From positions 22,415-86,414 of IMG/VR virus record IMGVR_UViG_3300037308_000440: 64,000 nucleotides of DNA. One strand, 5' to 3'. The translations under genes were made by a program, and so were the position numbers. The stretch is from a virus (Duplodnaviria; Caudoviricetes). Under the pieces are notes generated by a model. That model worked only from the letters and a program-made list of their open reading frames with translations, was not told the DNA's origin and made no database searches. Of this stretch, positions 3-60,298 are shown piece by piece (position 1 is the first letter of the stretch; every line of letters begins with the position of its first letter).

Positions 3-446
3 ATTGAACGTGCAGAAAATCTTGTTAAAATACATATGAGATCTCTTGATTCTTTATCAACTGGAAAAGCAATTCGTAGATTGCTTAAAGTTTTTGAAGA
101 ACATGATGTAAATTGGAAAGATTGGTTGAAATTAAAAATAGCTGATAAAAGAGCAAATCTAGCAAAAGAACAATATCAAAGAGAACATATCAAAAAGATT
201 TGCTTGAAGATTCATAATGCAAAGAAGTCTCCTGTAAGAGCTTTCTCTGTTAAAGATTTAAAAATTTCAGGTTATGATGTTATGGAAACTTTGAATATCA
301 AACCTGGAAATTTAGTTGGTGCTATTCTTAAAATATTATTCGATAGAGTTCTCGATGAACCTGAACTAAATGATCGTGATAGACTAATAGATATTTTAAG
401 GAGTGAAGAGTGGGTGAAACAGGCAGTAGAAATAAGGAACGCATAA
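3..446 (+). CDS. tRNA nucleotidyltransferase (CCA-adding)/poly(A) polymerase family, C-terminal part (5'-truncated)
   Basis: Frame open from window edge; C-terminal motif VKDLKISGYDVMETLNIKPGNLVGAILKILFDRVLDEPELN typical of bacterial CCA enzyme tail domain; next to tRNA cluster. Confidence 0.7.
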   Translation: MERAENLVKIHMRSLDSLSTGKAIRRLLKVFEEHDVNWKDWLKLKIADKRANLAKEQYQREHIKKICLKIHNAKKSPVRAFSVKDLKISGYDVMETLNIKPGNLVGAILKILFDRVLDEPELNDRDRLIDILRSEEWVKQAVEIRNA

Positions 447-829
447 GCTATCTTCATTTCGATGTCTACATGGATAAATTAGTCGAAATGATTAAGAATA
501 GTGAAAGGTTTCCTAATCTAAAATGTATTTATGGAATTCCTAGAGGTGGTTGGCCAATTGCAGTTCATTTAGCTCACCATTTAGAACTAGAACTAATTGA
601 ATCTTGTTCTTTAGATTCATTATTTAGAAAAATACCTTCTGAATTATTGATTGTAGATGATATTGCAGATACAGGAAAAACTTTAAAAAAATATGACTGG
701 TTTGCTTCTGCCACTTTATACTATAAACGAAGATCAGTAATCAAACCAACTTTTTATGTAAAAGAAACAGAAAACTGGATTGTATTTCCTTGGGAAAGAT
801 TAGATGAAGTTCCAAATAGACCAGAATAG
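410..829 (+). CDS. type I phosphoribosyltransferase (Gpt/Hpt-like)
   Basis: YGIPRGG, PRPP-binding LIVDDIADTGKT, terminal WIVFPWE as in xanthine/guanine PRTases. Confidence 0.85.
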   Translation: MGETGSRNKERISYLHFDVYMDKLVEMIKNSERFPNLKCIYGIPRGGWPIAVHLAHHLELELIESCSLDSLFRKIPSELLIVDDIADTGKTLKKYDWFASATLYYKRRSVIKPTFYVKETENWIVFPWERLDEVPNRPE

Positions 830-837
830 GTGAAGTC

Positions 838-1728
838 ATGGGTTCAATAGTAGATTATTTGATGAAACGGCAATTAGTAACTCCTCCACCTCATATAAAG
901 AATTCTGTTCAATATGAAGTGATGATGGGGTCAGTTGCATATGCTGATACTTCAGATATGGATGTCTACGGTTTTAGCATCCCTCCAAAAGAAATAGTTT
1001 TTCCTCATCTTGCAGGAGAAATTCAGGGATTTGGGAGACAACATAAAAGATTTGATCAATGGCAGCAACATCATATTAAAGATCCTTCAAATGATCAAAA
1101 ATATGACCTTACAATTTATAACATTGTGAAATATTTTCAGTTATGTATGGAAAACAACCCAAACATGATTGACTCATTATTTGTGCCTAGACGCTGTGTT
1201 CTACACTCCACTCAGATTGGTGAGCATGTGAGGGAGCACAGAAAAGAATTCTTACATAAAGGGTCTTGGCACAAATTCAAAGGATATGCATATAGTCAAG
1301 TCCATAAGATGACAACCAAAGATCCTGACCAAAATTCAACTAGAGTCTGGATGTATGAAAAATATGGGTATGACGTTAAGTTTGCATATCATGTGGTTCG
1401 TCTTCTAAATGAAGTAGAACAAATATTAACTGAGCACGATATTGATCTAGAAAGAAATCGTGAGCAGTTAAAGTCAATCAGACGTGGGGAATGGAAAGAA
1501 GAACAAATAGTAAAATATTTTGAAGATAAAGAAAAAGACCTAGAAACATTATATGTAAATAGTAAATTAAAACATTCTCCAGATGAACATAAGATTAAAA
1601 CAATTCTTATACAATGTCTGGAAATGTATTATGGTTCAATTGACGGAGCAATTAAAATGTCTGTTCCAATTGAAAATATTATTGATGAAGTAATTGCTAA
1701 ACTAGAGTTAATGAAAAAACAGCTATAA
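838..1728 (+). CDS. Pol-beta superfamily nucleotidyltransferase (RlaP/YcgL-like)
   Basis: GSVAY..SDMDVYGF (GS..DxD) motif; YDVKFAYHVVRLL helical C-terminal domain. Confidence 0.75.
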   Translation: MGSIVDYLMKRQLVTPPPHIKNSVQYEVMMGSVAYADTSDMDVYGFSIPPKEIVFPHLAGEIQGFGRQHKRFDQWQQHHIKDPSNDQKYDLTIYNIVKYFQLCMENNPNMIDSLFVPRRCVLHSTQIGEHVREHRKEFLHKGSWHKFKGYAYSQVHKMTTKDPDQNSTRVWMYEKYGYDVKFAYHVVRLLNEVEQILTEHDIDLERNREQLKSIRRGEWKEEQIVKYFEDKEKDLETLYVNSKLKHSPDEHKIKTILIQCLEMYYGSIDGAIKMSVPIENIIDEVIAKLELMKKQL

Positions 1729-1731
1729 CGT

Positions 1732-1807
1732 GGAACTGTAGCTCAGCAGGTAGAGCGCCGGTCTGAAGAGCCGGGCGTCAGAGGTTCAATTCCTCTCGGT
1801 TCCACCA
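1732..1807 (+). tRNA. trnF: tRNA-Phe(GAA)
   Basis: GGAACTG/CGGTTCC acceptor stem, anticodon arm CCGGT-CTGAAGA-GCCGG, T-loop GGTTCAATTCC, encoded CCA. Confidence 0.95.
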
Positions 1808-1816
1808 TTTTAAAAA

Positions 1817-2224
1817 ATGAAAAGAAGAAAACTAACAAGAGAAAAACCAAACAGAATGATACCACATGAAGAAAAGACAAAAATATGGACCAGATTTTTA
1901 GAATTTATTGATAGTATTGAAGTAGGAAAAAAATTTGCTAGAAAAAATCTACTATATAGTATTTATGGTATAAATGAAAAAGCTTTTGTATTCAAACAAA
2001 AAAGTGTAACTACTGTAGACAATTATAGAGCTATATTAACAAAATGTGGTATTCTTGAAGTAACAGAAAATTCAAGAGGTGTTTATAAAAAAGTTATGAA
2101 TGTTCCAAAAAACTTATCTTATTCAGTTGCAGTTAAAATGGCTTATGATTCTTCTTGGAAACAATGGTTCATGACTTTTGAGGACAAAGTGAAACATTAT
2201 GGTGGACGTGGTGAAGAGGCTTAA
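1817..2224 (+). CDS. hypothetical protein (paralog of 2293..2610); 3' end overlaps tRNA-His
   Basis: 135-aa ORF; C-terminal NVPKNLSYSVAVKMAYDSSWKQWF resembles NIPPQLKWKEAKQIARNPWMLWF of the next ORF. Confidence 0.75.
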   Translation: MKRRKLTREKPNRMIPHEEKTKIWTRFLEFIDSIEVGKKFARKNLLYSIYGINEKAFVFKQKSVTTVDNYRAILTKCGILEVTENSRGVYKKVMNVPKNLSYSVAVKMAYDSSWKQWFMTFEDKVKHYGGRGEEA

Positions 2225-2278
2225 CACGCTGGATTGTGGCTCCAGTATTCGCGGGTTCGAATCCCGTCGTTCACCCCA
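2201..2278 (+). tRNA. trnH: tRNA-His(GTG)
   Basis: G-1:C73 8-bp acceptor GGTGGACG/CGTTCACC, anticodon arm CTGGA-TTGTGGC-TCCAG, T-loop GGTTCGAATCC, CCA. Confidence 0.95.
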
Positions 2279-2292
2279 CTAATGGTGTAGAA

Positions 2293-2610
2293 ATGCAAAA
2301 CTGGTGGGTGACTGTAAATCATATTAATTCTAATATGAGAATAGGCGAAACCAAATCTATTGGTGCTATATTGATATGGTATCCCAGAAAAAAAAGAGAA
2401 GCAATTAGAAAAGCATTACTTCTATTAGCAAAAGCTAAATTTTTAAAACTTAAAAGTTATCCATATGGTTCATGCGAGGTTGAAAAACTTAGAAATATTC
2501 CACCACAACTTAAATGGAAAGAAGCAAAACAAATTGCCAGAAATCCTTGGATGTTATGGTTTAAATTTCCAGAGGATACATTAAAGGAGCAAACAAATGA
2601 AAAAAGTTAA
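2293..2610 (+). CDS. hypothetical protein (paralog of 1817..2224)
   Basis: Track start 2236 lies inside tRNA-His; first ATG after the tRNA is 2293. Confidence 0.7.
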   Translation: MQNWWVTVNHINSNMRIGETKSIGAILIWYPRKKREAIRKALLLLAKAKFLKLKSYPYGSCEVEKLRNIPPQLKWKEAKQIARNPWMLWFKFPEDTLKEQTNEKS

Positions 2611-2773
2611 AATTTTGTTATGTCTTTTAATCATATTACCATTTATTATGTCAGCAAGTCCTCCACCAAAAAAATATCCTGCACAAACAGGGGTTTATAA
2701 AGTTGAAAAACATAAATCATCATCTGCTCATGGGCATAGAGGATGCTTTATAGACTCATCACAAGGAGATTAA
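2597..2773 (+). CDS. small secreted/membrane peptide (58 aa; not in ORF track)
   Basis: AAGGAG RBS; MKKVKILLCLLIILPFIMSA signal-like N-terminus; fills the gap and abuts the next ORF. Confidence 0.6.
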   Translation: MKKVKILLCLLIILPFIMSASPPPKKYPAQTGVYKVEKHKSSSAHGHRGCFIDSSQGD

Positions 2774-2968
2774 ATGCCAATATACGAGTTTCAGTGTGAA
2801 ATGTGTGGTAAAAAATTTGAAAGGATTAGTAAAGATAAAACCTTACAAGCTATACATTGTCCTGAATGTGAAAAAGATGGAAAAGATAATTTAGCATTTA
2901 AGATAATATCAAGAACAAATTTCAAGGTGAATGGATTTAATGCAGACAACGGATACTCAAAAAGTTAG
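2774..2968 (+). CDS. FmdB-family zinc-ribbon protein
   Basis: MPIYEFQCEMCGKKFE...CPECE hallmark. Confidence 0.9.
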   Translation: MPIYEFQCEMCGKKFERISKDKTLQAIHCPECEKDGKDNLAFKIISRTNFKVNGFNADNGYSKS

Positions 2969-2978
2969 GAAAAATGAT

Positions 2979-3713
2979 ATGGCTGAAGATAATGGCCACG
3001 AGGATAAAAACATTTTAAAACAGTTATTAGATCCATCATATCCCTTAGCTCAAAGGTTTAAAGAAGTGTGCCCTGGCACATATAAACACTCTCAAAGTCT
3101 AGTAACGATGATTGAGGGTGTTAGTTTAGCTCTTAACCTTGATGTTGACTTCATGAAAGTTGCAGCTTTATATCATGATGTTGGTAAGATGTTTAATCCA
3201 ACATATTTTACAGAAAATCAGCTAGATGATGAAAATCCTCATGATAAGTTGGACCCAAAAATAAGTTATCAAATTATAACAAGACACGTTTCAGATACAT
3301 CTTTAATATTATTGAATGATCCATTATTTCCAAGAGAAATTATTGAAATTGCTACACAACATCATGGAACAACAATAACAAAATATTTCTTTGATAAAGC
3401 TGGTTCAAAAAATGAAGATTCTTTCCGATATAGGGGAAGCAAACCAAAAACAGTTGAAGCAATGATCTTATTAATATGTGATCATTTAGAAGCAAGAACA
3501 AGATCTGACGTTCAAGCTGGAAAGAAAATATCACCTAGTGATTTAATTGAGGAAATTATCAAGCATCAATTAAGCGATGGACAGCTTGATGATGTAGTTA
3601 TGCGCTTAGGTGATCTTCAAAAGATTAAGACGGCACTCTCAAGAGAATTAGAGGGAATCTATCAAAAGCGTGTTGATTATTCCAAAGCAAAAGAAGAACA
3701 AAATACAAAATAG
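2979..3713 (+). CDS. stand-alone HD(IG) phosphohydrolase, PgpH/7TM-HD catalytic-domain-like
   Basis: HSQ..ALYHDVGK..PTYFTENQ..NPHD..IITRHV..IATQHHGTT..FRYRGSKP..LICDHLEA matches PgpH-type HD domains; no TM region. Confidence 0.85.
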   Translation: MAEDNGHEDKNILKQLLDPSYPLAQRFKEVCPGTYKHSQSLVTMIEGVSLALNLDVDFMKVAALYHDVGKMFNPTYFTENQLDDENPHDKLDPKISYQIITRHVSDTSLILLNDPLFPREIIEIATQHHGTTITKYFFDKAGSKNEDSFRYRGSKPKTVEAMILLICDHLEARTRSDVQAGKKISPSDLIEEIIKHQLSDGQLDDVVMRLGDLQKIKTALSRELEGIYQKRVDYSKAKEEQNTK

Positions 3714-11860: not shown

Positions 11861-12509
11861 TAGAACCTCCCATTTGTAGCCATGTTTCCAAATACATCTT
11901 ATGAGACATTTGATAATAATGCCCATATTTTGCTACTCTAGTTCTTGGTCTATACATATCCAAAAAGTCAACTACATCAGCTTTAAATTCTGTTTGATGA
12001 CTTTCAGCTAATGCTTTAATAAACACTTCAGGATGTATAACTGCTGAACCCATACATACATAATGAAATGGTCTCCTAAAACGAGATACTAATTCTTTAT
12101 AACCAAAATATGAACATGTAGCTAAATCTCTCCAATTATGTTGATCGCCAAACATTTGCCAAAAATCACAAGCAAGACCAGTAAATAATAAAACACTAAT
12201 TCCTTTATTCTCACATAATCTAGTTATTGATCCTTCCGGAGCTGGATATTTAATTAACCATTCTAACACCATTCTACTTGCTGGCGCATTACATTGATAA
12301 CTTTCCAATAAATCATCTAATGGATATGAAGTTCTCCCTCCACAATCATCCATTGTTAATTGAAAATCATGAAAGATAGACCCACCATTATGAATCAACA
12401 TTTCAACTTTATTTTGTTCTATAACTTTTCGTAATTCTTCTCTTGCAGTTTTTATTACTGCTCCACCAATTGCAAGAATTCTTTTATCGAACTGGTAGGT
12501 GGTCTTCAT
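11850..12509 (-). CDS. deoxyhypusine-synthase-like fold protein (GSU2086-like)
   Basis: GGAVIK..HNGGSIFHDFQ..MGSAVIHPEVFIKALA motifs. Confidence 0.7.
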   Translation of the reverse strand: MKTTYQFDKRILAIGGAVIKTAREELRKVIEQNKVEMLIHNGGSIFHDFQLTMDDCGGRTSYPLDDLLESYQCNAPASRMVLEWLIKYPAPEGSITRLCENKGISVLLFTGLACDFWQMFGDQHNWRDLATCSYFGYKELVSRFRRPFHYVCMGSAVIHPEVFIKALAESHQTEFKADVVDFLDMYRPRTRVAKYGHYYQMSHKMYLETWLQMGGSNES

Positions 12510-12984
12510 TATATAGTTTCTTTCTTATTTCTTTTATTGAATTTAGATCTTCGCTATTAACTAAATCCATAGAATGTGGTTGTCTATCATCATCACCAAG
12601 TCCTTTAACTTGATAACAGAATAATGCAATAGCATTCCATGCTGCATGTGCTAAATGATGCAACCCACTTTCAGGATCATATTTTTCTCCACGCATCCAT
12701 TTAAATATATGTCTCAACATTGGCCCAATAACTTTTCTCCACTGCATCCCTTTCCACCAATTATCTGGATCATATTTATGACATCCATAAGTATAAACTA
12801 ATACAATCTCATGTAATGCATAGGGAGGAATTAAATCATATCTTGGTTTGCCACTATCAAATCTAGCAGCTACTGCTTTACCAAGTTGTGATTCCTGTTC
12901 TTTATTTCTAGTAAAAATATTTACAGGAATAGGATCTGGTTGAGAAAGATCTATTAAATCTTCATCTTTTTCAAAGTTTGCCAT
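12484..12984 (-). CDS. dATP/dGTP diphosphohydrolase (DUF5664)
   Basis: RFDSGKPRYDLIP..YGCHKYDPDNWWKG..RH..DPESGLHHLAHAAWN. Confidence 0.9.
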   Translation of the reverse strand: MANFEKDEDLIDLSQPDPIPVNIFTRNKEQESQLGKAVAARFDSGKPRYDLIPPYALHEIVLVYTYGCHKYDPDNWWKGMQWRKVIGPMLRHIFKWMRGEKYDPESGLHHLAHAAWNAIALFCYQVKGLGDDDRQPHSMDLVNSEDLNSIKEIRKKLYNEDHLPVR

Positions 12985-12997
12985 TATTGTTTCCTTT

Positions 12998-13591
12998 CTA
13001 TAGTTCTATTCCACAATATTCACAAACACCAACTTGGTCTTTGTGATCGCACAAATGAGAATATATTCTAAATTTCAAATCACTATTTTGTAACAGATAT
13101 CTGCCAGATACATCATAAAATTTGAATTCTGTAATAACAATTTCTTTAATACCTGCATTAATAATCTCAACCAAACAAGGAGTGCATGGAACACCACAAT
13201 CCATATAAAGAATACATCTTTTTGTTTTAATACCCATTCTAGCTGCATTAATCAATGCATTTCTTTCAGCATGACCTGCAACACACCATTGAAGTCCTTG
13301 TCCTGATTTATAACCCATAACATATCTAGGACATCTTTTTTGATTATTTTTATCATCTGGATTAATATGTTTCGATTCCAAATAAGCTCTCATTTCTGGA
13401 TCAATAACATATCTTTCTCCACAATGAGGAACTCCTCTAGGAGGGCCATTATATCCTTCACAAATAATTGTCTTATCTTTAACTAATAAACAACCAATTT
13501 GTCTTGATAAGCAACTACTGTTCTTACCAACAGCAGAAGCAATATTAAAAAAATATTTATCCCATTTCAATAAAGATTCATTTTTATTCAT
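12998..13591 (-). CDS. dCMP deaminase (ComEB-like)
   Basis: SCLSRQIG..GYNG..HAERNA..PCTPC. Confidence 0.92.
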   Translation of the reverse strand: MNKNESLLKWDKYFFNIASAVGKNSSCLSRQIGCLLVKDKTIICEGYNGPPRGVPHCGERYVIDPEMRAYLESKHINPDDKNNQKRCPRYVMGYKSGQGLQWCVAGHAERNALINAARMGIKTKRCILYMDCGVPCTPCLVEIINAGIKEIVITEFKFYDVSGRYLLQNSDLKFRIYSHLCDHKDQVGVCEYCGIEL

Positions 13592-13929
13592 CTGTTATCA
13601 CCACTCCCATGTATTTTTCCTTCTTTAAGACGCTTCAAAAGTTTTTGAAGATTGCCGATAGCCACATCATTAAGGTTAATATCAAAAAAGCTAGCATATC
13701 TAGTAAGATACCAAAGAACGTCCCCGAGCTCTTTTGTAATTTCTGTTTTGAAAACTTCGTCGGGAACTCCTTCATGATCTCTAAATAATTTTTTAGTCTT
13801 CTCAAATACTTCACCCATCTCTCCAACTAAACCATACATATAATAATTGATGGGATGTCCAAGCAATCGTTGAGCATCCCCTGATCTATCTGTTACTGCA
13901 ATTTTTTTCTGATATTCATTAAATGTCAT
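13588..13929 (-). CDS. MazG-like nucleotide pyrophosphohydrolase
   Basis: GLVGEMGEVFEK..ELGDVLWY..NLQKL..R. Confidence 0.9.
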   Translation of the reverse strand: MTFNEYQKKIAVTDRSGDAQRLLGHPINYYMYGLVGEMGEVFEKTKKLFRDHEGVPDEVFKTEITKELGDVLWYLTRYASFFDINLNDVAIGNLQKLLKRLKEGKIHGSGDNR

Positions 13930-14534
13930 AAAGAACCATAACCACTGAAAATTTCGTCAATTTCAACTTCAGCTTGTTTTAATAAAGTCATAATATTTTC
14001 TTTTGATAAACCACATAGAGGAGCTTCTAATTTAATTGGTTTTGGTCCATTAATTTGTAATACCTTATTAACACGACCAAACCATTCTTGTTTACAATCT
14101 GGAAATTCATTTAAGTAATCTGACCAGTCTGCTCCATGCCAAATAGTATCAATATCTAGATCTTCAGCAATAGAAGCTGCAATTGAAATAAACATTAGAT
14201 TTCTAGAAGGAACATGCATTGTATGTACGCCTTCAAATCTTCCCTTGGCCCCGCTGCCGGTTAACCCACTAGTAATTCCCAAATTGTGCAACATTACAAT
14301 ACGATAAGGAAGGCATTGTTTCTTTATATATCTTTGTGCATACTCTAATTCTTCTCTATGTAACTGTTGATAATCAATTAAAACAAATAAGGGGGTTTTT
14401 CCCATATCTCGTGCCAATAGATGCAATAGAACACTATCAGCACCACCACTAAATAAAATAACTAAATCTGGTTTTACACTAGTCACTTCTTCATCACAAC
14501 TACACTCTACACCACATTCACCACAAGGACTCAT
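13926..14534 (-). CDS. queC: QueC-like 7-cyano-7-deazaguanine synthase, atypical Zn site
   Basis: SGGADS PP-loop, DYQQLH.EE, VPSRNLMF, FPDC, APL..LSK; lacks C-terminal Cys cluster but has N-terminal PCGECGVECSC. Confidence 0.8.
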   Translation of the reverse strand: MSPCGECGVECSCDEEVTSVKPDLVILFSGGADSVLLHLLARDMGKTPLFVLIDYQQLHREELEYAQRYIKKQCLPYRIVMLHNLGITSGLTGSGAKGRFEGVHTMHVPSRNLMFISIAASIAEDLDIDTIWHGADWSDYLNEFPDCKQEWFGRVNKVLQINGPKPIKLEAPLCGLSKENIMTLLKQAEVEIDEIFSGYGSL

Positions 14535-14555: not shown

Positions 14556-14572
14556 TTATATTTTGTTCCAAA
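14556..14572 (-). promoter_or_regulatory. phage motif A
   Basis: TTTGGAACAAAATATAA upstream of AAAGGAGA RBS of queC operon. Confidence 0.55.
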
Positions 14573-56194: not shown

Positions 56195-56521
56195 ATGTTA
56201 AGATTATGGTTATTAGAAGTTGAACAAGCTGATTCTTCATGGGTTAATAAATATAGAGATATATATAGTAGTGAAGAAATAATGTATAGAAGGACAAAAT
56301 GTCATGAGTTCAGATCAGTATGGACTCAAAAAGGAAGAAATGAATTTCAAATTTGCTCAATGAGAGCAAAACAACATGCACTTAAAAAAGTAATAGCATA
56401 TTTAAAATCAGTTAAGTCAAGAAATCCAGAACAAAAAAGATATATTGATAGAACTATAAAATCATATTCAAATACGATAAATCAAATGGAACAAGCAATA
56501 AAAAGTCATGAGGGAAAGTAA
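56195..56521 (+). CDS. putative capsid-internal protein
   Basis: MLRLWLLEVEQ tag; GGAGG RBS. Confidence 0.6.
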   Translation: MLRLWLLEVEQADSSWVNKYRDIYSSEEIMYRRTKCHEFRSVWTQKGRNEFQICSMRAKQHALKKVIAYLKSVKSRNPEQKRYIDRTIKSYSNTINQMEQAIKSHEGK

Positions 56522-56522
56522 T

Positions 56523-56924
56523 ATGGATAAAGAATATTTACATATTTTAAAGAACACAAATTTACAACCAAAAAAACCTAAGATAAAAGAGCAGAAAGAA
56601 GAAGTACTACTGGAAGCTGAAAAAAAGATTGAAGTCTTAAAAGAACTATTTATTCAAGCTGGTGAAATTGAAAAGATGGAATCCGGACCTGAAAGAGATA
56701 AAGCGATGCTTAGATTGAGTATGACAGCCGAACTCGATGCAGTTAATTTATATATGAGATTTGCTGATTTGGCATCAGATGAATCAATTAGAGAAATAAT
56801 GATTGATGTTGCAGATGAAGAAAAGGTTCACGTTGGAGAGTTTCAAGCTCTATTAGAAGATGCAGATGAAAACTATGAAGATAAAATTGGAGAAGGTGAA
56901 GACGAAGTAGAAGAGAAAATCTAA
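56523..56924 (+). CDS. ferritin-like/rubrerythrin di-iron protein
   Basis: AELDAVNLY..DESIREIMIDVADEEKVHVGEF (E..Y..EExH). Confidence 0.88.
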   Translation: MDKEYLHILKNTNLQPKKPKIKEQKEEVLLEAEKKIEVLKELFIQAGEIEKMESGPERDKAMLRLSMTAELDAVNLYMRFADLASDESIREIMIDVADEEKVHVGEFQALLEDADENYEDKIGEGEDEVEEKI

Positions 56925-56933
56925 GGAGAAAAA

Positions 56934-57074
56934 ATGAAAGGTAAACATGTTTTAATTAGTGCTGGAGTTTTATTATTTACACTTTTATTAAAAGATTATA
57001 TTAGTGAAAAAATTAATAAAAAGAAAAAACCAACAGTTATAGTTTATAAAACATGGAGACAGAAACATGAATAA
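56934..57074 (+). CDS. 46-aa membrane peptide (not in track)
   Basis: AAGGAG RBS; HVLISAGVLLFTLLL. Confidence 0.6.
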   Translation: MKGKHVLISAGVLLFTLLLKDYISEKINKKKKPTVIVYKTWRQKHE

Positions 57075-57627
57075 ATATTTAATTTTAGAAAGATATATGT
57101 TTGAAAAAGAAAACTTACTTGATCAATTAATTCCAAGGAAAGATTGGAATAAATCGTCAGTTGGAATGAGCACGGATCAACTTTATAACGCAATAAAATC
57201 TGGAGAAATTAAACCAAAAAAGGCTAAAGCCAAAGATGTTGAAACTCCTGAAATAGATCCAAGTAAAGGAAGTTCACCAAACCTTCCTGCAGTGTTTAAA
57301 CCAAAATTTACTTATTCTGATGATTCTAAACAATGGTATAAAACTAAAACTGCAAAAGTAATTGGTGCTGCAGTATTAAGTGCAGCTATAATTGCTATAG
57401 CTTATAAAATATATAAAAAATATTCATCTATACGAGATTGTTCTAAAAAGATTGGTAATGATAAAGAAAGATGTTTAGATCATAATAGAAAAGTGGCAAT
57501 ACAAGCACAGATTAAAACTTTGAATAGTCTAAAACATAAATGTAATTTAGCAAAAGATACAACTAAGTGCTTAAAAAATGTTGAAAATAAAATAAAAGAT
57601 TTAAAAATTAAACTAAATAATGTATAA
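57067..57627 (+). CDS. putative virion protein, TM + 4-Cys family
   Basis: VIGAAVLSAAIIAIAYKIYKKY..C-x10-C-x22-C-x8-C. Confidence 0.65.
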   Translation: MNKYLILERYMFEKENLLDQLIPRKDWNKSSVGMSTDQLYNAIKSGEIKPKKAKAKDVETPEIDPSKGSSPNLPAVFKPKFTYSDDSKQWYKTKTAKVIGAAVLSAAIIAIAYKIYKKYSSIRDCSKKIGNDKERCLDHNRKVAIQAQIKTLNSLKHKCNLAKDTTKCLKNVENKIKDLKIKLNNV

Positions 57628-57644: not shown

Positions 57645-57658
57645 TTTAGAACAAATAA
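57645..57658 (+). promoter_or_regulatory. phage motif A
   Basis: TTTAGAACAAATAA upstream of the Qng1-RNR operon. Confidence 0.5.
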
Positions 57659-57689
57659 TCACAAAAAATGATTTTGGTGAGGCGAATTT

Positions 57690-58556
57690 ATGAATTTTAA
57701 ACCAACAGAAACTGTTTTTGAATTAGCGAACAATTTTATTAACAATTCACATTATGTTAAAATGAACTATGATAAAATTACTTTACTTGCAGAAGAAATG
57801 AAAAAACAGAATTTTAAGATACCTTTAACTGCTCCAAGAGATTTAAATCTAGAAATAATTAGAGATATTTTAAAGAATTCTATTAATTATTGTTACTGGT
57901 ATGGAAGACATGATATTAGACCAAACGAATCATGTGCAAGCAAATTAGGCAATATTGTTGATGCATGTTTTGAAGATAAAAACTATGAGAACTCAATTGA
58001 GTTATCATCAATGTTTACAAAATTTTTATGTAAAATTACAGAGGAAAGATTTCCTCTTATAGAAGAAAGATCAAAACACTTAAAACAAATACTTCCATAT
58101 GTAAAATCTATTTCAGATAAGATTATAAAAAATGAAAGTTTAAAACAAAGTTTTTGGGAAGTCATATGTATTTCTGAAAGTTATGGTTCAGATTTATTTT
58201 TGAAACGTGCATGTCTTTTATTTATTGAACTTTATAGAAAATATGAATATTTTAGAGACCTGTACAAAGATGAGCTGAAAAACTTTCCTGTCCCTGCTGA
58301 TTATCAAGTCCCTAAAATTCTAGAACACTTCAGTTGTATAATATATTCTAAAGACCTCAAGAGATCAATCGAAGATCATCAACTTATTTCTAAACACTCA
58401 ATTCAAGAATGTGAAATTAGATCCGCAACTGTTTTGGCGTGTAAGAAATTATGTGATCTTACTGGTTGGACTATAGCTGAGGTAGATTGGTGGTTATGGT
58501 CACAAAGAGATTCTGTAACCACTCCATTCCATTTAACAATCACTACTGATTACTAA
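57690..58556 (+). CDS. qng1: queuosine-5'-phosphate N-glycosylase (Qng1/C9orf64/DUF2419 family)
   Basis: SINYCYW, FPLIEER, FLKRA, PADYQVPKILEH..IYS.DL, ECEIR, VDWWLW, terminal PFH....Y, colinear with recalled Qng1 motifs. Confidence 0.87.
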   Translation: MNFKPTETVFELANNFINNSHYVKMNYDKITLLAEEMKKQNFKIPLTAPRDLNLEIIRDILKNSINYCYWYGRHDIRPNESCASKLGNIVDACFEDKNYENSIELSSMFTKFLCKITEERFPLIEERSKHLKQILPYVKSISDKIIKNESLKQSFWEVICISESYGSDLFLKRACLLFIELYRKYEYFRDLYKDELKNFPVPADYQVPKILEHFSCIIYSKDLKRSIEDHQLISKHSIQECEIRSATVLACKKLCDLTGWTIAEVDWWLWSQRDSVTTPFHLTITTDY

Positions 58557-58570
58557 GGAGATAATAATAT

Positions 58571-60298
58571 ATGAAAAAACAATTATCAGATAATGCGTTA
58601 AAAATAGCAAAATCAAGGTATTTTATGGAGGGAGAAGATTGGGAAGCCTGCTGTAAGAGAGTAGCATCAGTTATAGCATCACCTGAGATAAATAATAAGC
58701 AATTAAAAGAAGATCAATTTATTGAAATGATTTACAACATGGACTTTATTCCGGGGGGTAGAATATTAAGAAATTCTGGCCGACCTAGAGGTTCATTATT
58801 TAATTGTTATCATTTGCCCATTGGAGATTCAATTGAAGAAATTGGTCAGTTTATGAAAGACTCTTTGATTCTATGGTCAGAAGGAGGTGGGGTTGGTTGT
58901 AATTTTAGTCCTCTAAGACCAGCAGGAGATGCCATCTTAGGAAAAGGTGGTCAATCATCTGGATTAGTTAGTTTTATGGAAGCGTCTGATGCAGTAGCTA
59001 AAACCATTGAAAGTGGTGGAGGCAGAAGAGCAGCTACAATCGGGCATGTTGATATTAGTCATCCAGAAATTGTAAATTTTATTGATGCAAAGTTGTTACA
59101 TGGAAGACTTCCAAGGTTTAACATCTCAGTTGCTGTAAATCATGACTTTTTAGAATGTGTTGAAGCTGACAGAGATTGGCAATTTAAATTCAAGCAAAAA
59201 AATTATGGTTCAGTTAAAGCAAGAGATTTATGGAGTAAGATTGTTTCAAATATGGTTAGATGTGCTGAACCTGGTTTGATTAATTGGTCAAATTTTGCAA
59301 AGAATAATTCATATTATTTTTCTCCTGTTCTAGGAACAAATCCTTGTGGTGAAACTACATTATCTGCATATGAAGCTTGTGATTTAGGATCAATTGTTCT
59401 TCCTAATTTTATTACTGGTAATGTAAACACAAATTGGAAAAAGCTCGAAACTGTAATTAAAACTGCAGTTAGATTTTTAGATAATATTATTGATGTAAAT
59501 AAATATGCATTAAAAGAAATTGATATTAATGTTCATAAATCTAGACGTATTGGACTTGGTGTAATTGGACTAGCAGAATATTTATTTGCCAAAAAGATTA
59601 GATATGGTTCAGCTAAAGCTGTTGCAGAAGTTGAAACATTGATGAAAAAGATTAGAGATGCTTGTTATGTTGCATCTATGGAATTAGCAGTAGAGAAAGG
59701 AGCATTCCCACAATTTGAACCAGTGCAATATGGGAAAGCATCATTTATTAGAAAACTCCCTGCTGAAATTAGAATGGATATTAAAAAGTATGGAGTTAGA
59801 AATTGTACATTAATGGCATTAGCTCCTACTGGAACTATTTCATTATTAGCAGATTATTCAAGTGCAATTGAACCTCTGTTCGCAAAAGCATTATTAAGAA
59901 AAGATAGAGTAAGTGAAAGAATGTATATTCACCCTAAATATAAAGAGATTCTTGCAAGCGGAGAAGAAACTCCAGATTGGTTTGTTGATTCATTCGATCT
60001 AGAATCAAAAGATCATTTTGAAATGCAAGTTGCATGTCAGAAATATTGCGATGCTTCAGTAAGTAAAACAATTAATTTGCCTGCTGAAACTACAGAACAA
60101 GATTTAAGTAGTTTGCTTTTAGAATATATTTATGATCTAAAAGGAGTTACAGTTTATCGTGATGGATGTAGAGAAGGGCAAATTCTAAATAAAGTATCAG
60201 AAGAAGATGTTAAAGAATATTTGAAAACTCAAAAAGTAGCTGAACAATCTTTAAGAGAAGGAGATATGAACTGTTCAAGCGGTTCATGTGAACTATAA
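58571..60298 (+). CDS. nrdJ: class II (B12-dependent) ribonucleotide reductase
   Basis: PGGRIL, FNCY, GGGVG, RRAA, NPCGE, ACDLGS, RRIGLG, APTGTIS, C-terminal CSSGSC; no ATP cone. Confidence 0.9.
   Translation: MKKQLSDNALKIAKSRYFMEGEDWEACCKRVASVIASPEINNKQLKEDQFIEMIYNMDFIPGGRILRNSGRPRGSLFNCYHLPIGDSIEEIGQFMKDSLILWSEGGGVGCNFSPLRPAGDAILGKGGQSSGLVSFMEASDAVAKTIESGGGRRAATIGHVDISHPEIVNFIDAKLLHGRLPRFNISVAVNHDFLECVEADRDWQFKFKQKNYGSVKARDLWSKIVSNMVRCAEPGLINWSNFAKNNSYYFSPVLGTNPCGETTLSAYEACDLGSIVLPNFITGNVNTNWKKLETVIKTAVRFLDNIIDVNKYALKEIDINVHKSRRIGLGVIGLAEYLFAKKIRYGSAKAVAEVETLMKKIRDACYVASMELAVEKGAFPQFEPVQYGKASFIRKLPAEIRMDIKKYGVRNCTLMALAPTGTISLLADYSSAIEPLFAKALLRKDRVSERMYIHPKYKEILASGEETPDWFVDSFDLESKDHFEMQVACQKYCDASVSKTINLPAETTEQDLSSLLLEYIYDLKGVTVYRDGCREGQILNKVSEEDVKEYLKTQKVAEQSLREGDMNCSSGSCEL

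What the first reader, a model, noticed from the sequence alone, without database searches (positions are those of the whole stretch)
57690..58556. Phage Qng1 (DUF2419) queuosine-nucleotide glycosylase heading the RNR operon
Seen: motifs match Qng1/C9orf64 along the full length, including FLKRA, the ADY motif with its Asp, ExEIR, DxxLW and terminal PFH. The gene follows a motif-A site and directly precedes nrdJ. Established: Qng1 releases queuine from queuosine-5'-monophosphate and is mainly known from eukaryotes and some bacteria. Inference: the phage recycles 7-deazaguanine bases from degraded host tRNA for its own tRNA or DNA modification. Alternatively it sanitises deazaguanine nucleotides or counters a QueC/TGT-based defence (type IV CBASS, QatABCD). 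I do not know of a described phage Qng1.
Basis: partly seen in the sequence, partly recalled or inferred. Interest (0 to 1): 0.78.

Follow-up and report, generated by a model that had tools for sequence, protein, structure and literature searches.

The report
Phage-borne Qng1-like deazaguanine nucleotide hydrolase
An uncultured giant freshwater phage carries an intact, remodelled copy of the enzyme that cells use to recover the tRNA base queuine from spent nucleotides, probably to recycle 7-deazaguanine bases for the phage's own base-swapping machinery; I found no paper that reports this enzyme in a phage.

Summary
Window 57690-58556 (+) is a 288-aa ORF that belongs to the Qng1/DUF2419 family over its whole length: Pfam PF10343 scores 58.6 bits, a family profile matches StQng1 at E 2e-29, and the AlphaFold model (pLDDT 93.7) matches StQng1 at Z 27.7, against Z 15 or less for DNA glycosylases. 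The catalytic Lys/Asp, the guanine-recognising Asp/Trp, the ribose-stacking aromatics and the C-terminal Tyr-COOH are conserved across 79 relatives. The residues that hold queuosine's side chain and its proton relay are not conserved, so the substrate may be a smaller 7-deazaguanine nucleotide.

The gene follows a recurrent promoter-like motif and is tightly coupled to nrdJ. The same motif precedes the queC operon.

Close relatives of this phage encode FolE2, QueD, a QueE-like protein, QueC and a 465-aa TGT-fold transglycosylase that Pfam misses. The phage also carries Asp, Asn and His tRNAs, which are queuosine targets.

Three family members found no homologue in 50,697 GenBank phage genomes, BFVD held no match, and I found no paper describing a phage Qng1. 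The family is common on uncultured viral contigs. This scan has noted phage Qng1-like genes before on other DNA (e1-5999591, e1-5374927). Function is inferred, not tested.

The parts
57645..57655 (+). Promoter-like motif TTTAGAACAAA ('motif A'), 44 nt upstream of the Qng1-like start codon
   Evidence: 25 matches with up to one mismatch against 9.15 expected, 0 of 100 shuffles reach 25; the motif's strand follows gene orientation
57676..57682 (+). Shine-Dalgarno-like GGTGAGG, 7 nt before the ATG
   Evidence: read directly from the sequence
57690..58556 (+). Qng1/DUF2419-family nucleotide N-glycosylase gene (288 aa, P0001)
   Evidence: Pfam PF10343 58.6 bits; profile against StQng1 E 2e-29; AF2 pLDDT 93.7; Z 27.7 to 7uk3
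58571..60298 (+). Class II (B12-dependent) ribonucleotide reductase nrdJ, with its AGGAG site overlapping the upstream stop codon
   Evidence: TIGR02504 497.9 bits against cut-off 399.95; Pfam Ribonuc_red_lgC E 3.8e-103; junction sequence
56508..56924 (+). EncFtn/rubrerythrin-like ferritin gene, the conserved upstream neighbour of the Qng1-like gene in this phage lineage
   Evidence: Pfam and NCBIfam hits; directly upstream of the Qng1-like gene in 6 related loci, and one ORF further away in this window
13926..14534 (-). QueC homologue (202 aa), first gene of a nucleotide-pool operon
   Evidence: PF06508 E 9.8e-31; TIGR00364 96.8 bits, below its equivalog cut-off
14562..14572 (-). Copy of the same promoter-like motif (one mismatch), 28 nt upstream of queC
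12484..13929 (-). MazG-like gene, dCMP-deaminase-like gene and a gene with the dATP/dGTP diphosphohydrolase N-terminal domain (PF18909), all downstream of queC
   Evidence: Pfam hits
2202..2278 (+). Phage tRNA-His(GUG), a queuosine-target tRNA; Asp(GUC) and Asn(GUU) lie just upstream of the window in the same record
   Evidence: ARAGORN

Best explanation
The ORF encodes an active, phage-adapted member of the Qng1/DUF2419 family. This is a closed-pocket HhH enzyme that cuts the N-glycosidic bond of a guanine-shaped (7-deazaguanine) ribonucleoside 5'-monophosphate and releases the free base. It is transcribed with nrdJ from a phage promoter-like motif that the queC operon shares. The likely role is a salvage arm of the phage's 7-deazaguanine economy. 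Nucleotides freed by turnover of modified tRNA or DNA during infection would be converted back to free base. A free base is the only form that a transglycosylase can insert, whether that enzyme is the TGT-fold protein of this phage lineage or the host TGT. This salvage would add to de novo preQ0 synthesis by FolE2, QueD, the QueE-like protein and QueC. The queuosine side-chain pocket and proton relay are remodelled in the whole phage clade, so the preferred substrate may be a smaller precursor nucleotide (preQ0, preQ1, ADG or CDG type) rather than Q-5'-MP. Shown here: family membership, fold, conserved catalytic residues, operon layout and the pathway genes in the lineage. Inferred: enzymatic activity, substrate, and which polymer (DNA or tRNA) finally receives the base.
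For: Family and fold. Z is 27.7 (rmsd 2.9 A over 280 of 288 residues) to StQng1 and 26.6 to human QNG1, against 15.1 or less for AGOG/Ogg. Residues that PMC9881137 defines as catalytic or substrate-binding are conserved in 79 clade representatives: K172 (K199) 79/79; D204 (D231) 77/79; Y205 (Y232) 78/79; D266 (D298) 79/79; W270 (W302) as W59/F19; N66 (N72) 75/79; H281 and E240 (H316, E267) 79 and 78; and all 79 sequences end exactly at the C-terminal Tyr (Y323 equivalent), whose carboxylate binds the ribose 3'-OH in StQng1. That last feature argues for a mononucleotide substrate rather than a polymer. The phosphate contacts look swapped rather than lost: K233 becomes Q206, while Q306 becomes R273-K274 in the clade. 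Pathway context: QueC is in the window; QueD is in 5 records of the same lineage; FolE2 is in 3; a QueE-like radical SAM protein is in G007 and G017. A 465-aa protein in G007 and G017 carries DSGGFQ, gives a weak phrog_887 hit (E 6e-7), and its model matches only TGT/ArcTGT structures at the top (Foldseek top 50; Z 19.3 over 328 residues). The phage has 19 tRNAs including Asp, Asn and His, and 85% of its His/Asn/Asp/Tyr codons end in U. Hutinet 2019 (PMC6884629) proposed that phage preQ0 genes may boost Q in tRNA. Epigenomes 2024 (PMC11130926) found a preQ0/preQ1 transporter next to a bacterial qng1, which hints that some Qng1 homologues serve precursor salvage.
Against: No activity was measured. 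StQng1 residues D69 and D207, whose alanine mutants fail to complement, align with variable S/N/G and Q/M/E in the clade; W299 aligns with a variable position; the W48/H53 region is variable or gapped; and P0001 has G87 where StQng1 has Y93. The canonical chemistry for queuosine may therefore not apply, and these N-terminal alignments are less certain. The TGT-fold gene, QueD, QueE-like and FolE2 genes were seen in relatives, not in this 86-kb record, which is 28% complete. Other phage lineages that carry the gene showed no QueC, QueD or TGT in their fragments. Their neighbours vary and include a metallophosphoesterase, RtcB, RNase T, a GMP reductase-like gene, ligases and helicases, so there is no fixed partner. 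The source of substrate nucleotides is a guess.
Confidence: 0.55

Rival explanations
1. Pool gatekeeper. The enzyme destroys a guanine-type mononucleotide, either canonical GMP/dGMP or stray 7-deazaguanine nucleotides. This would steer the nucleotide pool that NrdJ, MazG and the dATP/dGTP diphosphohydrolase-like enzyme act on, in support of a G-substituted genome rather than base salvage.
For: The gene is coupled to nrdJ. The lineage has a QueC-MazG-dCMP deaminase-PF18909 operon under the same motif. The D266/W270 guanine-recognition pair is conserved while the bulky side-chain pocket is not. An IMPDH/GMP-reductase-like gene lies near the homologue in L014.
Against: No evidence separates this from salvage, since the same reaction serves both purposes. 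K172 and the C-terminal carboxylate match a ribo-nucleotide binding mode. No sign of full G replacement was available.
Confidence: 0.2
2. Synthetic base-exchange enzyme. Using a covalent Asp-ribosyl-phosphate intermediate, it swaps guanine for preQ0-type bases on a mononucleotide. The product would be reduced by NrdJ and built into DNA by the polymerase.
For: Qng1 may use a double-displacement mechanism with retention (PMC9881137). The gene is adjacent to nrdJ. A small phosphoribosyltransferase-domain gene lies at window 410-829.
Against: No HhH enzyme that I know of catalyses such an exchange (own knowledge, not checked). The lineage has a TGT-fold transglycosylase, which makes a nucleotide-level route unnecessary. 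The PRTase is missing from the 79%-complete relative G007.
Confidence: 0.05
3. Counter-defence. It removes or depletes a 7-deazaguanine compound that host QueC/TGT-like defence systems (type IV CBASS, QatABCD) need.
For: Those systems use 7-deazaguanine chemistry (deazaguanylation papers found). The gene wanders among phage lineages like an accessory gene.
Against: From the titles and abstracts and my own recollection, deazaguanylation joins the base to a protein. I did not read the linkage chemistry, but nothing there indicates an N-glycosidic nucleotide bond of the kind this enzyme cuts. The gene sits in replication and nucleotide modules, not among anti-defence genes. No direct evidence.
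Confidence: 0.05
4. DNA glycosylase. An HhH enzyme that excises a base from DNA.
For: The HhH fold is shared with AGOG/Ogg/EndoIII (Z 8-15).
Against: The Qng1 match is far stronger (Z 27.7 against 15.1). The invariant C-terminal Tyr-COOH, together with its H281/E240 partners, closes the pocket on the ribose 3'-OH in Qng1 and is invariant here. That is incompatible with a polymer substrate.
Confidence: 0.03

Closest known systems
Qng1/QNG1 (DUF2419, PF10343): Sphaerobacter thermophilus StQng1 (PDB 7U07, 7UK3, 7U91) and human QNG1/C9orf64 (7UGK), queuosine-5'-monophosphate N-glycosylase
   Same: Full-length fold (Z 27.7 and 26.6). HhH Lys and Asp. The Asp/Trp/aliphatic sandwich for the 7-deazaguanine ring. 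The aromatic ribose clamp. The C-terminal Tyr carboxylate with its His and Glu partners.
   Different: About 35 residues shorter. D69 becomes S/N/G, D207 becomes Q/M/E, K233 becomes Q and Q306 becomes R-K. The W299 and W48/H53 pocket residues are not conserved. The gene is carried by giant phages next to nrdJ. No activity data.
Phage 7-deazaguanine DNA modification systems (FolE, QueD, QueE, QueC with DpdA1-4; phage 9g, CAjan, phiST, CP220; Hutinet 2019 and 2023)
   Same: The lineage encodes a complete preQ0 pathway and a TGT-superfamily transglycosylase.
   Different: Those papers, as far as I could search them, list no Qng1/DUF2419 component. Here the pathway genes are scattered. FolE is type IB. 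The transglycosylase (465 aa) escapes PF01702, PF20314 and a DpdA3 query.
QueK nucleoside hydrolase with the QueL queuine lyase (bacterial queuine salvage, Yuan 2019, as cited in PMC11130926)
   Same: Releases a 7-deazaguanine base from a nucleoside or nucleotide for reuse by TGT.
   Different: An unrelated fold and family. It acts on the nucleoside. Not found here.
HhH DNA glycosylases (AGOG, Ogg, EndoIII, MutY)
   Same: HhH core and catalytic Asp/Lys.
   Different: They are open DNA-binding enzymes with much weaker structural similarity (Z 15 or less), and they lack the C-terminal carboxylate lid.

Membership tests
Qng1/DUF2419 (PF10343) | Family HMM score above the curated threshold | tested here: met
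   58.6 bits against a cut-off of 25, E 9.6e-16; the genome-level search agrees
Qng1/DUF2419 (PF10343) | Full-length two-lobe Qng1 fold, closer to Qng1 than to DNA glycosylases | tested here: met
   AF2 pLDDT 93.7. Z 27.7, rmsd 2.9 A, 280 residues aligned to 7uk3; Z 26.6 to human 7ugk; the next family (AGOG) scores Z 15.1. Foldseek's top 10 are all Qng1.
Qng1/DUF2419 (PF10343) | HhH catalytic Lys (K199) and Asp nucleophile (D231) | tested here: met
   K172 and D204 in P0001; 79/79 and 77/79 in the clade
Qng1/DUF2419 (PF10343) | 7-deazaguanine ring recognition (D298, W302, aliphatic I203) and ribose clamp (F75, Y232) | tested here: met
   D266 79/79; W270 as W59/F19; L176 77/79; Y69 as Y64/F15; Y205 78/79
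Qng1/DUF2419 (PF10343) | C-terminal Tyr whose carboxylate completes the active site, with His and Glu partners (Y323, H316, E267) | tested here: met
   All 79 sequences end in Y; H281 79/79; E240 78/79; model residue 288 aligns with chain residue 323
Qng1/DUF2419 (PF10343) | 5'-phosphate pocket (R80, K233, Q306) | tested here: inconclusive
   K233 becomes Q206 (Q in 69/79). Q306 becomes K274 in 49/79 (D in P0001), preceded by R273 (64/79). R77 is R in 71/79. This looks like a charge swap, but it was not checked in 3D.
Qng1/DUF2419 (PF10343) | Queuosine side-chain pocket and proton relay (D69, D207, W48, H53, Y93/W94, W299) | tested here: not met
   Position 63 is S28/N19/G10/D10. Position 180 is Q43/M13/E8. 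Position 267 is variable. The 45-53 region is variable or gapped. Position 87 is Y in 54 but G in P0001. A distant hit, P0286, keeps the canonical D/D/K/W/Q pattern. Based on sequence alignment only.
Qng1/DUF2419 (PF10343) | Hydrolysis of Q-5'-MP to queuine | not testable with these tools
   Needs an enzyme assay
HhH DNA glycosylases (AGOG/Ogg/Nth) | Best structural and sequence match to a DNA glycosylase with an open DNA-binding cleft | tested here: not met
   Z 15.1 or less against 27.7 for Qng1. No DNA glycosylase Pfam hit at E 1 or better. The C-terminal lid is conserved.
TGT/DpdA superfamily (465-aa protein of relatives G007 and G017, not in the window) | TGT TIM-barrel fold with the DSGGFQ substrate motif | tested here: met
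   DSGGFQ at 93-98, invariant in 30 sequences. AF2 pLDDT 84.2. Foldseek's top 50 are all TGT/ArcTGT. Z 19.3 over 328 residues. phrog_887 E 6e-7.
TGT/DpdA superfamily (465-aa protein of relatives G007 and G017, not in the window) | Match to curated family models PF01702 (TGT) or PF20314 (DpdA4), or to DpdA3 of phiST | tested here: not met
   No hit. Membership therefore rests on the fold, one motif and a weak PHROG match. The target (DNA or tRNA) is unknown.

The most novel reading that the evidence does not exclude
The phage clade is not a queuosine enzyme at all. Its remodelled pocket makes it specific for small 7-deazaguanine (preQ0, ADG or CDG type) or even canonical guanine mononucleotides. 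Coupled to NrdJ, MazG and the dGTP-diphosphohydrolase-like enzyme, it would then control, or by base exchange even create, the modified nucleotide pool for a G-substituted phage genome. That would be a nucleotide-level branch of 7-deazaguanine DNA modification that has not been described.
Probability: 0.1. Interest if true: 0.8.

Novelty: new variant of a known kind. Interest (0 to 1): 0.58.

Why it matters
In what I read, the steps described for phage 7-deazaguanine DNA modification are de novo synthesis (FolE, QueD, QueE, QueC) and insertion (DpdA); Hutinet 2019 also notes the preQ0 importer YhhQ in some phages. A virus-borne Qng1 subfamily would add a recycling or pool-control step. It also offers a natural set of Qng1 variants with an altered specificity pocket, which could show what decides Qng1's substrate choice. 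In addition, it flags a large unannotated TGT-fold family (611 homologues, all 'hypothetical') as the likely transglycosylase of a widespread group of freshwater giant phages. If the substrate proves to be a precursor nucleotide, the known chemistry of the DUF2419 family widens beyond queuosine.

Tried and rejected
It was overturned by phrog_887 and a fold search on a 465-aa protein.

2. The purine PRTase (window 410-829) as an obligatory partner. It is absent from the 79%-complete relative G007.

3. FolE type I (PF01227) and QueF (PF14489) gave no hit. FolE2 was found instead.

4. Cultured-phage homologues. tblastn with three family members against 50,697 phage records found nothing. megablast of the locus found nothing. 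BFVD held no structural match at E 0.001 or better.

5. PHROGs held no family for the protein, only a 0.002 hit of unknown function. NCBIfam had no model hit.

6. The genome-contig scan found only 5 loci, mostly MAG contigs that look viral. The patterns used were strict.

8. Expression: no RNA holder was listed for the locus.

9. Literature searches for DUF2419, Qng1, queuosine salvage or PF10343 together with phage terms found no description. The MMBR 2024 review is not held.

11. The pocket could not be inspected in 3D, because model coordinates are not exposed. All residue mapping rests on HMMER and MAFFT alignments.

Full report
**Observation**

Window 57690-58556 (+) is a clean 288-aa ORF. 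It has a GGTGAGG ribosome-binding site 7 nt upstream. Its TAA stop overlaps the AGGAG site of the next gene.

- Pfam PF10343 (Q_salvage/DUF2419) scores 58.6 bits against a cut-off of 25. With the single sequence it covers only the C-terminal 107 residues.
- phmmer against the PDB finds only Qng1 entries, at E about 8e-9.
- A profile of the protein plus 78 representative relatives (A1) aligns end to end with StQng1 (E 2e-29) and with human QNG1 (E 2e-19).

**Fold**

The AlphaFold2 model built on A1 has mean pLDDT 93.7 and pTM 0.92.

- Foldseek's ten best PDB hits are all Qng1 structures (TM 0.73-0.82, E about 1e-10). The next family, Ogg/AGOG, starts at E 0.01.
- VIA-align gives Z 27.7 (rmsd 2.9 A, 280 of 288 residues) to wild-type StQng1. 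It gives Z 26.6 to human QNG1 and Z 15.1 or less to any DNA glycosylase.

**Active site**

Hung et al. 2023 (PMC9881137) define these StQng1 residues:

| Role | StQng1 residues |
|---|---|
| Orients the ribose | K199 |
| Nucleophile | D231 |
| Hold the 7-deazaguanine ring | D298, W302, I203 |
| Clamp the ribose | F75, Y232 |
| Bind the phosphate | R80, K233, Q306 |
| C-terminal carboxylate lid binding the 3'-OH | Y323, H316, E267 |
| Proton relay | D69, N72, D207 |
| Pocket for the cyclopentenediol of queuosine | W48, H53, Y93, W94, W299 |

I mapped these through the HMMER alignments and counted residues in 79 clade representatives.

Conserved in the clade:

| P0001 residue | StQng1 equivalent | Count in 79 |
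|---|---|---|
| K172 | K199 | 79 |
| D204 | D231 | 77 |
| Y205 | Y232 | 78 |
| D266 | D298 | 79 |
| W270 | W302 | W59/F19 |
| L176 | I203 | 77 |
| N66 | N72 | 75 |
| Y69 | F75 | Y64/F15 |
| H281 | H316 | 79 |
| E240 | E267 | 78 |

Every sequence also ends exactly at Tyr.

Not conserved in the clade:

- The D69 equivalent is S/N/G/D.
- The D207 equivalent is Q/M/E.
- The K233 equivalent is Q in 69.
- The W299 equivalent is variable.
- The W48/H53 region is variable or gapped.
- The Q306 equivalent is preceded by R and is K in 49.

One distant metagenomic hit, P0286, keeps the full canonical D/D/K/W/Q pattern. The difference is therefore a subfamily signature and not alignment noise.

My reading has three parts. 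The chemistry and the mononucleotide binding mode are kept. The phosphate contacts are probably swapped between two positions. The part of the pocket that is specific for queuosine's side chain is remodelled. This rests on alignments, because I could not inspect coordinates.

**Genomic setting**

The window belongs to an 86-kb IMG/VR virus record that CheckV rates 28% complete. Freshwater metagenomes hold the DNA.

The gene lies in a T4-like replication and nucleotide module with a clamp loader, a Dda-like helicase and a UvsX-like recombinase. Its neighbours run in this order:

- an EncFtn-like ferritin gene;
- a 186-aa ORF unique to this phage;
- the Qng1-like gene;
- nrdJ (TIGR02504, above its cut-off);
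- a RecA/UvsX-like gene.

Six related viral loci keep ferritin-like, Qng1-like and nrdJ in the same order.

TTTAGAACAAA, 44 nt upstream of the gene, is a strand-specific over-represented motif: 25 matches against 9.15 expected, with 0 of 100 shuffles reaching 25. It also precedes queC.

**The phage's 7-deazaguanine genes**

- QueC lies in the window, followed by a MazG-like gene, a dCMP-deaminase-like gene and a PF18909 gene.
- QueD is in five records of the same lineage.
- FolE2 is in three.
- QueE-like radical SAM proteins are in G007 and G017.
- QueF was not found.

PF01702, PF20314 and the phiST DpdA3 protein found no transglycosylase.

- phrog_887 gave weak hits to a 465-aa ORF in G007 (E 6e-7) and to its 51%-identical homologue in G017. 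Each lies about 3 kb from the QueE-like gene.
- The family has 611 homologues with no Pfam domain.
- It has an invariant DSGGFQ motif.
- Its model (pLDDT 84.2) matches only TGT/ArcTGT at the top: the Foldseek top 50, and Z 19.3 over 328 residues.

The lineage therefore has synthesis, insertion and a candidate salvage enzyme. None of the transglycosylase, QueD, QueE-like or FolE2 genes lies in the 86 kb at hand. Their presence in this phage is inferred from close relatives.

**tRNA side**

The record has 19 tRNA genes, including Asp(GUC), Asn(GUU) and His(GUG). The relatives G007, G017 and the unrelated G013 carry such tRNAs too.

In this 30.6% GC genome, 85% of His/Asn/Asp/Tyr codons end in U, and these codons make up 18% of all codons. 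This fits a benefit from queuosine at position 34, as Hutinet 2019 suggested for phages with preQ0 genes. It is also simply what an AT-rich genome with many tRNAs would show.

**Distribution and novelty**

- The exhaustive representative search finds 779 clusters at E 0.001 or better and 140 at 1e-30 or better.
- IMG/VR yields 18 loci from several unrelated phage groups. Their neighbours vary: a metallophosphoesterase, RtcB, RNase T, cREC, an intein-bearing IMPDH/GMP-reductase-like gene, ligases and helicases.
- In 185,579 species genomes, the clade's two signature peptides hit only 5 loci. The full-length ones sit on MAG contigs that share genes with viral contigs.
- The protein atlas places the nearest cluster mostly in Uroviricota.
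- NCBI labels some MAG copies 'queuosine salvage family protein'.

Automatic annotation therefore already names the domain. Even so, three family members found nothing in 50,697 GenBank phage genomes, BFVD holds no match, and no paper in the held library describes a phage Qng1. This scan has reported phage Qng1-like genes on other DNA before (e1-5999591, e1-5374927).

**Verdict**

The gene is a genuine Qng1-family gene, probably active, in a giant phage. It represents a virus-associated subfamily with an altered specificity pocket.

The best-supported role is salvage of a 7-deazaguanine base from mononucleotides for the phage or host transglycosylase (0.55). A pool-control role is the main rival (0.2). 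Base exchange, counter-defence and DNA glycosylase readings are minor. The substrate and the final destination of the base need bench work.

Noticed in passing
G007:C1:41314-42708 (-) = L077:727-2124 (-); homologue at G017:C1:38986-40359: A 465-aa protein of a highly conserved family: 611 homologues, the 120 listed at 61-93% identity, all 'hypothetical' with no Pfam domain. It has an invariant DSGGFQ motif and a TGT fold, so it is a likely unannotated DpdA/TGT-type transglycosylase of freshwater giant phages.
   Followed up: partly
window 56508-56924 (+): An encapsulin-cargo-type ferritin-like (EncFtn/rubrerythrin) gene is the conserved upstream neighbour of the Qng1-like gene and nrdJ in this phage lineage. 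Its role next to a B12-dependent RNR is unexplained.
   Followed up: no
window 57067-57627 (+): A 186-aa ORF with a hydrophobic segment is inserted between the ferritin-like and Qng1-like genes in this phage only. It has no Pfam hit and only a weak PHROG hit of unknown function.
   Followed up: no
window 36-3713 (+): A tRNA-care cluster sits among the tRNA genes. It includes a tRNA nucleotidyltransferase domain, a small phosphoribosyltransferase-domain protein (410-829), an RlaP RNA-repair nucleotidyltransferase (838-1728) and an HD-domain protein (2931-3713).
   Followed up: partly
G000:C1:14299-14376 (outside the window, about 8 kb upstream): ARAGORN calls a tRNA with a CUA (amber-reading) anticodon among the 19 tRNAs of the record. 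An earlier scan note covers it.
   Followed up: no
L014:11851-12669 (+): An IMPDH/GMP-reductase-like gene carrying a Hint (intein) domain. It lies beside a cREC_REC cyclic-phosphate-processing domain gene and an RNase T-like exonuclease, just downstream of another phage's Qng1-like gene.
   Followed up: no
L013:12089-13327 (+): A TnpB/Cas12f-like (OrfB_IS605 with TNB domain) gene on a viral contig close to the Qng1-like gene.
   Followed up: no
L022:15134-16198 (+) (G007): A 354-aa radical SAM/SPASM-type protein whose best NCBIfam hit is prokaryotic viperin-like. It lies about 6.5 kb from QueD, and relatives G001 and G005 have radical-SAM ORFs of similar size (347 and 340 aa) 6-7 kb from their QueD, though I did not test homology. 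Function unknown.
   Followed up: no
L077:2568-3092 (-) (G007): A proteasome-subunit (HslV-like) domain protein encoded next to the TGT-fold gene.
   Followed up: no
L029 (MAG contig assigned to Candidatus Borrarchaeum, 179 kb): This contig carries a Qng1-like gene flanked by DnaB-like and SNF2-like helicase genes that are 37-40% identical to those of viral contig L016. The contig is probably viral rather than Asgard-archaeal.
   Followed up: partly
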